A stretch of 37,783 nt of DNA from a virus (taxonomy: Duplodnaviria > Heunggongvirae > Uroviricota > Caudoviricetes), in the IMG/VR virus record IMGVR_UViG_3300029190_000005. One strand, written 5' to 3'. The notes under the pieces are model-generated. The model worked only from the letters and a program-made list of their open reading frames with translations, was not told where the DNA came from and ran no database searches. Position numbers and translations under genes: made by a program. This document shows positions 34,207 to 34,473 of the stretch, piece by piece. How positions within the stretch are numbered: the first letter of the stretch is position 1; each line of letters begins with the position of its first letter.

Positions 34207-34393
34207 AGCGATCACCTTTGTAGTTAGGTTAATCACCACCGCTGAGACCAATCAGATGGTGGTGAACTGTGCAGAGTTGGTCTTACCGGCTACAAAGGAA
34301 CCCGGCGCACCTTTCGGTGCCCCCACACAGCCCACCATAGAATAGGTGCGCTTTACACATAAAAAAACCGCTTATGCGGCATATGTGCCTCTG

Positions 34394-34447
34394 TAGTAAT
34401 CCGGGAGACCAATCCCGGCACTGGATTTTGCCAGTGCCCGATTACTA
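34394..34447 (-). other. Compact three-stem structured element (candidate small RNA or leader)
   Basis: Outer stem TAGTAATC (34394-34401) / GATTACTA (34440-34447) encloses hairpins CCGGGA-gaccaa-TCCCGG (34401-34418) and GCACTGG-attttg-CCAGTGC (34419-34438); a weak hairpin + U-run on the minus strand lies at about 34361-34379. Confidence 0.3.
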
Positions 34448-34473
34448 TGGCACAAGAGGAGTGCAATGTAAAT

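What the first reader, a model, noticed from the sequence alone, without database searches (positions are those of the whole stretch)
34361..34470. Compact three-stem element in the antirepressor leader: candidate small RNA or attenuator
Between the operator at 34474-34488 and the Bro-N start at 34206 there is about 265 bp of leader. It contains an 8-bp outer stem (34394-34401 / 34440-34447) enclosing two perfect hairpins, followed on the minus strand by a weak hairpin plus a 7-U run (about 34361-34379). That would terminate a leftward transcript after roughly 100 nt, before the antirepressor. It could be a terminated sRNA or an attenuator gating antirepressor expression.
Basis: seen in the sequence. 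Interest (0 to 1): 0.55.

Follow-up and report, generated by a model that had tools for sequence, protein, structure and literature searches.

The report
IsrK/c4 RNA switch upstream of antirepressor
The flagged element is a copy of a known phage small RNA (IsrK, the a1/b1 leader of a P1-type c4 antisense-RNA module) sitting with its partner c4 RNA in front of an antirepressor gene, so it is a real but already described regulatory device.

Summary
The stems, hairpins and U-tract are all present at the stated coordinates on the minus strand. The 77-nt stretch 34437..34361 matches Rfam isrK (74.7 bits, cutoff 50). The unit is promoter, IsrK (a1, b1, terminator), C4 (b', a'), a2/b2 over the Shine-Dalgarno sequence, then the Bro-N antirepressor. 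This is the P1 immI and Gifsy-1 isrK layout.

Across 23 specificity types, the C4 b' loop pairs best with its own IsrK b1 in 20 cases, and also pairs specifically with its own RBS site b2. Both tests gave 0 of 100,000 permutations.

The two inner hairpins and the terminator are conserved, with compensatory changes. The 8-bp outer stem is not: its 5' arm lies in the -10 box and discriminator of the proximal promoter, and it is seen only in Uetakevirus-like phages. It could form only in transcripts from a predicted upstream promoter.

The most likely mechanism is that C4 blocks the ant RBS, while short terminated IsrK mimics the target and titrates C4. Read-through supplies C4 and ant mRNA.

Verdict: a new member of a known kind, of low interest. 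These RNAs are not annotated in the GenBank and RefSeq records examined.

The parts
34488..34517 (-). Upstream promoter-like site, TTGAAA-18-TATTAT, with a predicted start near 34481. Only transcripts from here would contain the outer stem.
   Evidence: 10 of 12 matches to consensus. An equivalent site ends just before the operator in three different upstream-flank types. Prediction only.
34474..34488 (.). Operator-like palindrome TTACCGAAAAGGTAA, lying between the two promoter-like sites.
   Evidence: one of 16 TTACC-N5-GGTAA sites in the window, against 0.67 expected by chance. The binding protein was not identified.
34444..34472 (-). Proximal promoter, TTTACA-17-(TG)CATAGT, with a predicted start at about 34437.
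   Evidence: In alignment A1 the only invariant flank columns are A14 and T18, which are positions 2 and 6 of the -10 hexamer. The position matches the annotated P1c4 (P51b) -10 of P1 and the Gifsy-1 IsrK +1.
34361..34437 (-). IsrK-type small RNA, which is also the a1/b1 leader of the c4 module. 77 nt.
   Evidence: Rfam isrK RF01394: 74.7 bits (cutoff 50), E = 1.9e-15, model positions 1-77. It overlaps c4-a1b1 RF03163 at 39.9 bits, below the 46.7 cutoff.
34418..34437 (-). Hairpin 1: 7 bp with loop CAAAAU.
   Evidence: Paired in 97.5-99% of cells, with 6 of 7 pairs showing changes on both sides.
34402..34417 (-). Hairpin 2. Its loop presents a1 (UUGGUCU, 34412..34406).
   Evidence: Paired in 98% of cells. 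a1 is the complement of C4 a' AGACCAA. The homologous a1:a' pairs were validated by compensatory mutations in Gifsy-1.
34388..34396 (-). b1 (CUACAGAGG), single-stranded in the short RNA and complementary to the C4 loop b'.
   Evidence: Unpaired probability is 0.88. Cognate versus non-cognate test.
34361..34380 (-). Intrinsic terminator: GCCGC-AUAA-GCGGU followed by U7.
   Evidence: A hairpin plus U-tract is present in all 23 types, with different stem sequences.
34440..34447 (-). It overlaps the -10 hexamer and discriminator of the proximal promoter. The extension UGUGCC lies at 34449-34454.
   Evidence: Not conserved outside Uetakevirus-like phages.
34394..34401 (-). 3' arm of the outer stem (GAUUACUA). 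It overlaps the first 3 nt of b1. The extension GGCACA lies at 34384-34389.
   Evidence: In a transcript starting at 34481 the stem forms and the b1 unpaired probability falls to 0.45.
34382..34388 (-). 5' strand (GCACAUA) of a helix that bridges the terminator.
34355..34361 (-). 3' strand (UAUGUGU) of the terminator-bridging helix. It exists only in read-through RNA.
   Evidence: Predicted in all 23 types. Cognate test gave 0 of 100,000 permutations. Paired in 84.9% of cells, with all 6 pairs changed on both sides.
34255..34342 (-). C4 antisense RNA. b' (CCUUUGUAG, 34298..34290) sits in a hairpin loop. a' (AGACCAA, 34283..34277) is single-stranded.
   Evidence: Rfam C4 RF01695: 78.6 bits (cutoff 45), E = 5.3e-15, full length. 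Fold.
34245..34251 (-). a2 (UUGGUCU), the target of C4 a' in the ant leader.
   Evidence: Identical to a1. The position matches the annotated a2 of P1.
34215..34223 (-). b2 (CUACAAAGG), the target of C4 b'. It overlaps the ant Shine-Dalgarno sequence AAGGUGA (34218..34212).
33514..34206 (-). Bro-N antirepressor gene, ATG at 34206.
   Evidence: Pfam Bro-N, E = 1.9e-13. Homologues are annotated as anti-repressor or anti-immunity proteins. A Uetakevirus Bro-N anti-repressor lowered prophage titre when overexpressed (PMC9782041).

Best explanation
The element is the IsrK-type leader RNA (the a1/b1 segment) of a P1-type immI module. It is not a free-standing three-stem RNA.

Transcription starts at about 34437 from the promoter TTTACA-17-CATAGT, next to a repressor operator. 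Most transcripts stop at the terminator (34380..34361) and yield a 77-nt RNA. This RNA displays a1 in the loop of hairpin 2 and b1 as a single strand.

Read-through transcripts carry the C4 antisense RNA (34342..34255) and the ant message. C4 pairs through its loop b' and its single strand a' with b2 and a2 in the ant leader. That pairing covers the Shine-Dalgarno sequence and keeps the antirepressor untranslated.

IsrK carries a copy of the same two target sites. It therefore binds C4, in cis in the read-through RNA and in trans as the short RNA. When abundant, it frees the ant RBS. The hypervariable b sites set immunity specificity.

Shown here: family identity, anatomy and three-way co-variation. 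Shown in relatives by experiment: the a1:a' pairing and activation of antirepressor translation by short IsrK in Gifsy-1. Inferred for this phage: the start site, RNA isoforms, C4 processing and the direction of regulation.
For: Family matches:
- Rfam isrK 74.7 bits and C4 78.6 bits, both above cutoff and full length.
- The same tandem isrK-C4-ant order occurs in phiV10 and Gifsy-1.
- P1 is annotated with promoter, a1, b1, c4, a2, b2 in the same order.

Complementary sites in the window:
- a1 and a2 UUGGUCU pair with a' AGACCAA.
- b1 CUACAGAGG and b2 CUACAAAGG pair with b' CCUUUGUAG.
- b2 overlaps the SD.

Co-variation over 23 distinct b' loops:
- Cognate b':b1 averages -10.8 kcal/mol against -4.8 for non-cognate pairs. 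The cognate is the best partner in 20 of 23, with 0 of 100,000 permutations.
- Cognate b':b2 averages -10.7 against -5.7. The cognate is best in 14 of 23, with 0 of 100,000 permutations.

Structure:
- Both hairpins are 97-99% paired, with compensatory changes.
- In the 77-nt RNA, a1 and b1 are 86-88% unpaired.
- The MFE of the 246-nt read-through RNA pairs a1:a' and b1:b' in cis.

Experimental support from Gifsy-1:
- The paper's numbering maps G28 and G31 to a1 and C159 and C162 to a'.
- The compensatory mutants and the more than 100-fold activation of anrP translation by IsrK in trans are in PMC4825925.

Start site: the invariant A and T of the -10 hexamer lie 7 nt before hairpin 1.
Against: - There are no transcript data for this phage.
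- The c4-a1b1 model scores 39.9 bits, below its 46.7 cutoff.
- Whole-molecule cofolding gives almost no net gain (-1.8 kcal/mol for IsrK+C4, 0.0 for C4+leader). The loop-strand contacts compete with stable intramolecular folds, and kissing contacts are not modelled.
- The activating role of short IsrK rests on Gifsy-1, where an ORF through C4 (orf45) overlaps the antirepressor start. Here that ORF is 28 codons and stops 45 nt before the ATG, so that part of the mechanism cannot apply.
- One natural relative (L018) has an a1 that does not match its a'/a2, so the a1 contact may be dispensable.
- The function of a1/b1 in P1 is annotated only as 'putative'.
Confidence: 0.75

Rival explanations
1. 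The full three-stem structure, including the outer stem, is the functional unit. It would be made from the upstream, operator-proximal promoter (start near 34481). The outer stem masks b1, so promoter choice decides whether the leader can engage C4.
For: The outer stem is 8 + 6 bp in the window and forms in the MFE. In a transcript starting at 34481, the b1 unpaired probability falls from 0.88 to 0.45. Tandem promoter-like sites flanking the operator recur in three other upstream-flank types. P1 has tandem promoters, P2c4 and P1c4. APSE-2 shows a similar two-part complementarity at -11.2 kcal/mol.
Against: Across 23 types the outer stem is only 52-59% paired. Outside the Uetakevirus-like group, cognate flank pairs are not better than non-cognate pairs (p about 0.11). 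The apparent compensatory change in L070 (TAGTGAT) is shared with L102, which has a window-like b1. Within the group the 5' arm is nearly constant, because it is the -10 box and discriminator, so conservation cannot be told apart from promoter constraint.
Confidence: 0.15
2. The element is a pure transcription attenuator. The terminator alone gates ant, perhaps with C4 promoting termination as the P4 CI RNA does at seqA and seqC. The short RNA would have no trans function.
For: A terminator sits between promoter and ant in all 23 types. The Gifsy-1 authors raised the P4 CI analogy.
Against: Blocking a1/b1 barely changes the predicted terminator (0.88 to 1.0), and no competing antiterminator appears in the MFE. 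b1 co-varies with b' and b2, which a bare terminator would not need. In Gifsy-1, short IsrK in trans activates translation 139-fold but transcription only 8-fold. Constitutive STnc1160 did not counteract IsrK there.
Confidence: 0.07
3. The region encodes a small protein: the 37-aa minus-strand ORF 34353-34466 or the 42-aa plus-strand ORF 34374-34502.
For: The ORFs exist. Gene callers place hypothetical CDS over the homologous regions in some phage records.
Against: Variation is in compensatory stem pairs rather than in a codon pattern. Two covariance models match at E of about 1e-15. The ORF through C4 varies from 8 to more than 50 codons between relatives. The identical phage record annotates no CDS here.
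Confidence: 0.02
4. The element is a plus-strand antisense RNA, like P22 sar, or a DNA-level cruciform or protein-binding site.
For: The plus strand folds as well as the minus strand (z = -5.3). The hairpins are perfect palindromes in DNA.
Against: Homologues keep stems through many G-U pairs, which would be A-C mismatches on the other strand. The U-tract terminator and the Rfam matches are minus-strand only. Besides the three minus-strand matches, the Rfam scan of 33000-36200 listed only a weak plus-strand RT-7 match (18.5 bits against a cutoff of 116.8) and no sar family match.
Confidence: 0.02

Closest known systems
IsrK sRNA of Salmonella prophage Gifsy-1 (Rfam RF01394; Hershko-Shalev et al. 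2016, PMC4825925)
   Same: Two 5' hairpins with loops CAAAAU and UUGGNNN, a single-stranded spacer, and a Rho-independent terminator. The promoter abuts hairpin 1. A C4-like RNA (STnc1160) and an antirepressor gene lie downstream. The a1:a' pairing equals the paper's helix b-I.
   Different: The b specificity differs: CUACAGAGG here, UCACCG in Gifsy-1. Here the ORF through C4 is 28 codons and ends 45 nt before ant, so orf45-anrP translational coupling cannot apply. Here b2 lies directly on the ant SD. The host phage is a Uetakevirus-like podophage, not a lambdoid, and there is no adjacent antQ or isrJ. The outer stem and the repressor operator are lineage features.
immI region of phages P1 and P7: c4 antisense RNA with a1/b1 and a2/b2 sites (Rfam RF01695, RF03163, clan CL00128)
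   Same: The order is operator, tandem promoters, a1, b1, c4, a2, b2, then the regulated ORF. a1 sits in the loop of hairpin 2 and b1 just 3' of it. b2 lies over the SD. A terminator-like hairpin and the bridging helix are also present in P1. The repressor has dispersed operators.
   Different: There is no icd gene, so C4 targets the antirepressor RBS directly. The antirepressor is a Bro-N protein rather than Ant1/Ant2. The operator is a symmetric TTACC-N5-GGTAA. The c4-a1b1 model scores just below its cutoff (39.9 against 46.7).
P4 CI RNA with seqA and seqC
   Same: A processed antisense RNA is flanked upstream and downstream by two copies of its own target, all on one transcript. The analogy was drawn by the IsrK authors.
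   Different: CI acts by causing premature transcription termination, and its target is replication genes. Sequence relatedness was not tested here.
P22 immI sar RNA
   Same: A small RNA that limits antirepressor translation (PMC12197685).
   Different: sar is transcribed from the opposite strand across the ant RBS, with Mnt and Arc repressors. Nothing of that kind was found here.

Membership tests
isrK (Rfam RF01394) | Covariance-model score at or above the gathering cutoff (50 bits), full length | tested here: met
   74.7 bits, E = 1.9e-15, model positions 1-77 of 77, at 34437..34361 on the minus strand.
isrK (Rfam RF01394) | Two adjacent 5' hairpins followed by a Rho-independent terminator | tested here: met
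   Fold. Terminator scan. Hairpins are 97-99% paired with compensatory changes in 23 to 42 homologues.
isrK (Rfam RF01394) | Sits upstream of a C4-like processed RNA (STnc1160) and an antirepressor gene | tested here: met
   C4 lies at 34342..34255 and the Bro-N gene starts at 34206. Gifsy-1 has the same order.
isrK (Rfam RF01394) | Exists as a short terminated RNA plus a read-through mRNA, and binds Hfq | not testable with these tools
   Needs Northern blot, term-seq or Hfq co-immunoprecipitation. Only Gifsy-1 data exist.
isrK (Rfam RF01394) | Activation works through an upstream ORF (orf45) translationally coupled to the antirepressor | tested here: not met
   The ORF starting at the C4 AUG is 28 codons and stops 45 nt before the ant ATG. 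Overlap with the start codon occurs in only 3 to 4 of 23 types. This is a feature of the Gifsy-1 mechanism, not of the RNA family model.
c4-a1b1 (Rfam RF03163) | Covariance-model score at or above the gathering cutoff (46.7 bits) | tested here: not met
   39.9 bits, E = 6.5e-8, at 34450..34398. phiV10 scores 44.1 and Gifsy-1 48.1. This is a near miss, and the model includes 13 nt of promoter flank.
c4-a1b1 (Rfam RF03163) | Carries a1 and b1 sequences complementary to a' and b' of the adjacent C4 | tested here: met
   a1 UUGGUCU pairs with a' AGACCAA. b1 CUACAGAGG pairs with b' CCUUUGUAG, with one G-U pair. Co-variation over 23 types.
P1-type immI (c4-icd-ant) | C4 antisense RNA on the same strand and transcript as its target | tested here: met
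   RF01695 at 78.6 bits, cutoff 45. No promoter-like or terminator-like site was predicted between the IsrK terminator and ant.
P1-type immI (c4-icd-ant) | a2/b2 target sites covering the ribosome-binding site of the first regulated ORF | tested here: met
   a2 is at 34251..34245. b2 at 34223..34215 overlaps the SD at 34218..34212. The cognate b':b2 test gave 0 of 100,000 permutations.
P1-type immI (c4-icd-ant) | An icd ORF between c4 and ant, coupled to ant | tested here: not met
   ant starts 49 nt after C4 and there is no intervening gene.
P1-type immI (c4-icd-ant) | C4 released from the precursor by RNase P | not testable with these tools
   Known for P1 from my own knowledge of Hartmann et al. 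1995, which was not read here. Needs RNA 5'-end mapping in an rnpA mutant.
P1-type immI (c4-icd-ant) | Promoter under control of the prophage repressor through an operator | tested here: inconclusive
   The palindrome TTACCGAAAAGGTAA lies between the two promoter-like sites and belongs to a set of 16 sites in the window. The binding protein was not identified.
P22 sar antisense RNA | Opposite-strand transcript overlapping the ant RBS, with arc and mnt genes | tested here: not met
   The Rfam scan of 33000-36200 (E up to 1) listed no sar family match. A plus-strand promoter-like site (GTGACA-17-AATCAT, 34121..34149) reads away from the RBS. The neighbouring plus-strand ORF has no Pfam match.

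The most novel reading that the evidence does not exclude
The outer stem is functional. The repressor-controlled upstream promoter and the proximal promoter would make two leader isoforms. Only the longer one folds the 14-bp outer helix, which masks b1. Promoter choice would then decide whether the leader titrates C4 and so whether the antirepressor is released. A second point: the helix bridging the terminator and U-tract is conserved from P1 to APSE-2 and is in neither the Rfam isrK nor the c4-a1b1 model matched here. It may mark a read-through-specific processing or Hfq-exclusion structure.
Probability: 0.15. Interest if true: 0.45.

Novelty: new member of a known kind. Interest (0 to 1): 0.2.

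Why it matters
This explains how the Bro-N antirepressor of Uetakevirus-like prophages is probably kept silent and released. The module is present in 449 of 5,426 complete E. coli genomes. The one Uetakevirus study found in the paper search does not mention antisense or small RNAs in its main text.

It also exposes an annotation gap. In the RefSeq hits listed and the GenBank records examined, no RNA is annotated here. The features under the match are the BRO-N gene or nothing, and some phage records place hypothetical CDS over the RNAs.

Finally, it shows that Rfam isrK and c4-a1b1 describe one element, although isrK is outside clan CL00128 and a 2025 review treats IsrK and c4 separately. The 23 co-varying b types are a ready-made catalogue of RNA-based immunity specificities.

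Tried and rejected
1. A strict C4 pattern scan of the viral contigs returned only one locus.
2. My IsrK pattern had 7 N where the window type has 6. It therefore missed close relatives but usefully fetched 14 distant modules, plus 3 chance coding hits: L093, L094 and L100.
3. The first cognate versus non-cognate test used segments that included GC-rich stem arms and was noisy. I repeated it with the b' loop only.
4. Idea: C4 binding to b1 favours termination by removing a competing hairpin (GGCA-caua-UGCC). Rejected. That hairpin is not in the MFE, and the terminator probability moves only from 0.88 to 1.0.
5. Idea: TAGTGAT in L070 is a compensatory change supporting the outer stem. Rejected. 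L102 has the same -10 variant with a window-type b1.
6. The MAFFT alignment A1 is out of register in the b1 and terminator region, so its terminator counts are not meaningful. I used a covariance-model-fitted alignment instead, which leans toward the modelled structure.
7. Whole-molecule cofolding does not capture the loop-strand contacts.
8. The original P1 papers (PMC523184, PMC312442, PMC196329) are not held. Statements about c4 processing in P1 rest on the GenBank annotation and my own knowledge.
9. The RT-7 match (18.5 bits against a cutoff of 116.8, E = 0.2) is treated as chance.

Full report
**Observation**

On the minus strand the region reads: promoter-like TTTACA-17-CATAGT (34472..34444), then GG, then hairpin 1 (34437..34418, GCACUGG/CAAAAU/CCAGUGC). 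Next come hairpin 2 (34417..34402, loop UUGGUC), GAUUACUACAGAGGCACAUAU, and the terminator GCCGC-AUAA-GCGGU with U7 (34380..34361). It extends by a further 6 bp (34454..34449 with 34389..34384). The minus-strand fold gives exactly this layout (-46.9 kcal/mol, z = -5.1). The plus strand folds equally well, so the strand has to be assigned by other evidence.

**Identity**

An Rfam scan of 33000-36200 gives three minus-strand matches:
- isrK RF01394 at 34437..34361: 74.7 bits (cutoff 50), full length.
- c4-a1b1 RF03163 at 34450..34398: 39.9 bits, just under its 46.7 cutoff.
- C4 antisense RNA RF01695 at 34342..34255: 78.6 bits (cutoff 45).

The gene downstream (ATG 34206) is a Bro-N protein.

The DNA is 100% identical to Escherichia phage EC.W1-9 and related to phiV10, a Uetakevirus. 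EC.W1-9 annotates nothing here. phiV10 annotates only a 'putative rho-independent terminator' and a 'putative anti-immunity protein'. phiV10 and Gifsy-1 carry the same isrK-C4-antirepressor tandem. The Gifsy-1 copy is the experimentally studied IsrK.

P1 is annotated with the C1 operator Oc4, tandem promoters P2c4 and P1c4, then a1, b1, c4, a2, b2 and icd-ant. a1 lies in the loop of the second hairpin and b1 lies just 3' of it. I use this naming throughout.

**Anatomy in the window**

| Site | Sequence | Coordinates |
|---|---|---|
| a1 | UUGGUCU | 34412..34406 |
| b1 | CUACAGAGG | 34396..34388 |
| C4 b' (hairpin loop) | CCUUUGUAG | 34298..34290 |
| C4 a' (single strand) | AGACCAA | 34283..34277 |
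| a2 | UUGGUCU | 34251..34245 |
| b2 | CUACAAAGG | 34223..34215 |

b2 overlaps the SD AAGGUGA (34218..34212). IsrK therefore carries a copy of the two target sites that C4 recognises on the ant RBS.

**Related loci**

I collected loci from four sources:
- 80 loci encoding relatives of the antirepressor.
- 14 distant modules from a DNA pattern scan.
- Six annotated phages, including APSE-2, Stx phages and a Klebsiella phage.
- P1.

After parsing, these give 23 distinct b' loops.

The b' loop of each C4 pairs with the b1 of its own IsrK at a mean of -10.8 kcal/mol, against -4.8 for non-cognate pairs. The cognate is the best partner in 20 of 23, with 0 of 100,000 permutations. For its own b2 the values are -10.7 against -5.7, cognate best in 14 of 23, again 0 of 100,000. 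The a sites vary less (UUGGUCU, UUGGCGU, UUGGCAU, UUGGAAG, UUGACCT, TTTGACA) but change together in a1, a' and a2.

This is the three-way co-variation expected if b sets immunity specificity. From my own knowledge, the same is known for P1 versus P7.

**Experimental anchor**

Taking +1 as the first base of the Rfam match in Gifsy-1, the paper's numbering fits exactly: A107 and A119 are the two orf45 AUGs. G28 and G31 fall in a1, and C159 and C162 fall in a'. The published compensatory mutants (G28A/C162U, G31A/C159U) and the paper's helix b-I are therefore the a1:a' contact. The published start site is the first base of hairpin 1.

The same paper shows that short IsrK in trans raises anrP translation more than 100-fold. 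It also shows that an RNA of about 80 nt (STnc1160) is processed from the read-through transcript. That RNA coincides with the C4 match. The phrase 'phage P1' does not occur in the paper's main text.

**Structure tests**

On a MAFFT alignment of 23 types (A1):
- Hairpin 1 is 97.5% paired, with 6 of 7 pairs changed on both sides.
- Hairpin 2 is 98% paired.
- The outer stem is 52-53% paired and its extension 59%.

An energy test shows the outer complementarity is strong only in the Uetakevirus-like group (-12 to -18 kcal/mol; weakest in the L070 type). In the other 18 types it is no better than non-cognate pairs (p about 0.11).

The only invariant flank columns of A1 are A14 and T18. These are positions 2 and 6 of the -10 hexamer, 7 nt before hairpin 1. 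The 5' arm of the outer stem is therefore the last four bases of the -10 box plus the discriminator.

It would be transcribed only from the upstream promoter-like site (34517..34488). That site has positional equivalents in three other upstream-flank types. In such a transcript the stem forms and the b1 unpaired probability falls from 0.88 to 0.45. This reading is kept as a minority rival.

**A feature not in the isrK or c4-a1b1 models**

In all 23 types the terminator hairpin and U-tract are enclosed by a helix. In the window this is GCACAUA (34388..34382) with UAUGUGU (34361..34355). The cognate test gave 0 of 100,000 permutations. On a covariance-model-fitted alignment of 42 distinct sequences the helix is 84.9% paired, with all six pairs changed on both sides. 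That alignment leans toward the modelled structure. The 3' strand lies beyond the U-tract, so the helix exists only in read-through RNA and cannot influence the termination decision. Its role is unknown; processing or hiding the U-tail are possibilities.

**Mechanism**

The best-supported model has four steps:
1. C4 blocks the ant RBS through b':b2 and a':a2.
2. IsrK, made in excess because most transcripts terminate, presents accessible a1 and b1 (86-88% unpaired). It competes for C4.
3. In the read-through RNA the same sites pair in cis. The MFE of the 246-nt transcript pairs a1:a' and b1:b', which corresponds to the paper's inactive 'structure A'.
4. The operator between the promoters ties the module to the prophage repressor.

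Differences from the models: there is no icd (P1). There is also no orf45-ant overlap (Gifsy-1). The ORF through C4 is 28 codons here, stops 45 nt before the ATG, and varies from 8 to more than 50 codons among relatives. Control here is directly at the ant SD.

A C4-dependent attenuator switch was tested in silico and found weak.

**Novelty**

The family and mechanism are known, and this copy passes the isrK and C4 thresholds. It is a new, uncharacterised member in Uetakevirus-like phages. It is common: 449 of 5,426 complete E. coli genomes carry it. None of the listed RefSeq hits or the GenBank records examined annotates an RNA here.

Interest is low. The modest added value is threefold: the link between IsrK and c4-a1b1, the catalogue of b specificities, and the conserved terminator-bridging helix.

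Noticed in passing
window 34255-34342 (-): A full-length C4 antisense RNA (Rfam RF01695, 78.6 bits) lies directly downstream of the flagged element.
   Followed up: yes
window 211, 5293, 5355, 6067, 6115, 6452, 8398, 8460, 12952, 12970, 15689, 16313, 33414, 34474, 34599, 35923: The palindrome TTACC-N5-GGTAA occurs 16 times (with at most 1 mismatch), against 0.67 expected by chance. The sites often come in pairs 18-125 bp apart. This looks like a set of dispersed repressor operators, reminiscent of the 22 C1 operators of P1. The binding protein was not identified.
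   Followed up: partly
window 34382-34388 with 34355-34361 (-); all 23 module types, including P1 L004, Gifsy-1 L002 and APSE-2 L104: A helix bridges the IsrK terminator and its U-tract and can exist only in read-through RNA. It is conserved with compensatory changes and is part of neither the Rfam isrK nor the c4-a1b1 model matched here. Function unknown.
   Followed up: partly
window 34230-34238 (-) and the homologous position in relatives: Just after a2, GGUGGUGAU is complementary to the 3' strand of the C4 closing stem (UCACCACC). It pairs with that strand in the MFE of the read-through RNA. P1 appears to have a matching variant, seen by eye. This may be an alternative to the mature C4 fold before processing.
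   Followed up: no
L026 around 946-1060: The loop and inner pairs of hairpin 1 are inverted (GGATTTTGCC instead of GGCAAAATCC) in an otherwise window-identical module. This is a hairpin-loop inversion.
   Followed up: no
L018 (two module copies, 114-228 on the minus strand and 947-1061 on the plus strand): One copy has a1 UUGGCGU but a'/a2 of the AGACCAA/UUGGUCU type. It is a natural a1 mismatch that looks like a recombinant between specificity types. L009 is a hybrid with matched sites.
   Followed up: partly
window 34599-35565 (+): Two plus-strand ORFs (34614/34650-35069 and 34954-35565, no Pfam match for the first) are preceded by a promoter-like site and a second operator-like copy (34599-34613). 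They sit between the ant promoters and the 126-aa ORF. Most relatives lack them. This looks like a moron-type insertion.
   Followed up: no
window 35592-35969 (-): The C-terminal 84 residues of this 126-aa ORF are 40% identical to the C-terminal domain of the Bro-N antirepressor (E = 2e-15). It is a Bro-N-less paralogue encoded just upstream on the same strand. EC.W1-9 annotates a shorter CDS (about 85 aa) at this position, the same length as phiV10p24.
   Followed up: partly
L102 763-960, L105 632-799, L106 545-794; RefSeq E. coli hits H41-H54: Gene callers place 'hypothetical protein' CDS over IsrK/C4 in several phage records. The listed RefSeq E. coli hits show only the BRO-N gene, one hypothetical protein or no feature under the match, and no ncRNA.
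   Followed up: partly
Rfam families RF01394 and RF03163: isrK and c4-a1b1 hit the same DNA in the window, phiV10 and Gifsy-1. However, isrK is not in clan CL00128 with C4 and c4-a1b1. The two entries describe one element.
   Followed up: yes
L001 (phiV10) about 2490-2525: In phiV10 the operator sits inside a much longer perfect palindrome (AGTGCTTATATTTACC-GCAAA-GGTAAATATAAGCACT). This replaces the TTTACA -35 of the proximal promoter.
   Followed up: no
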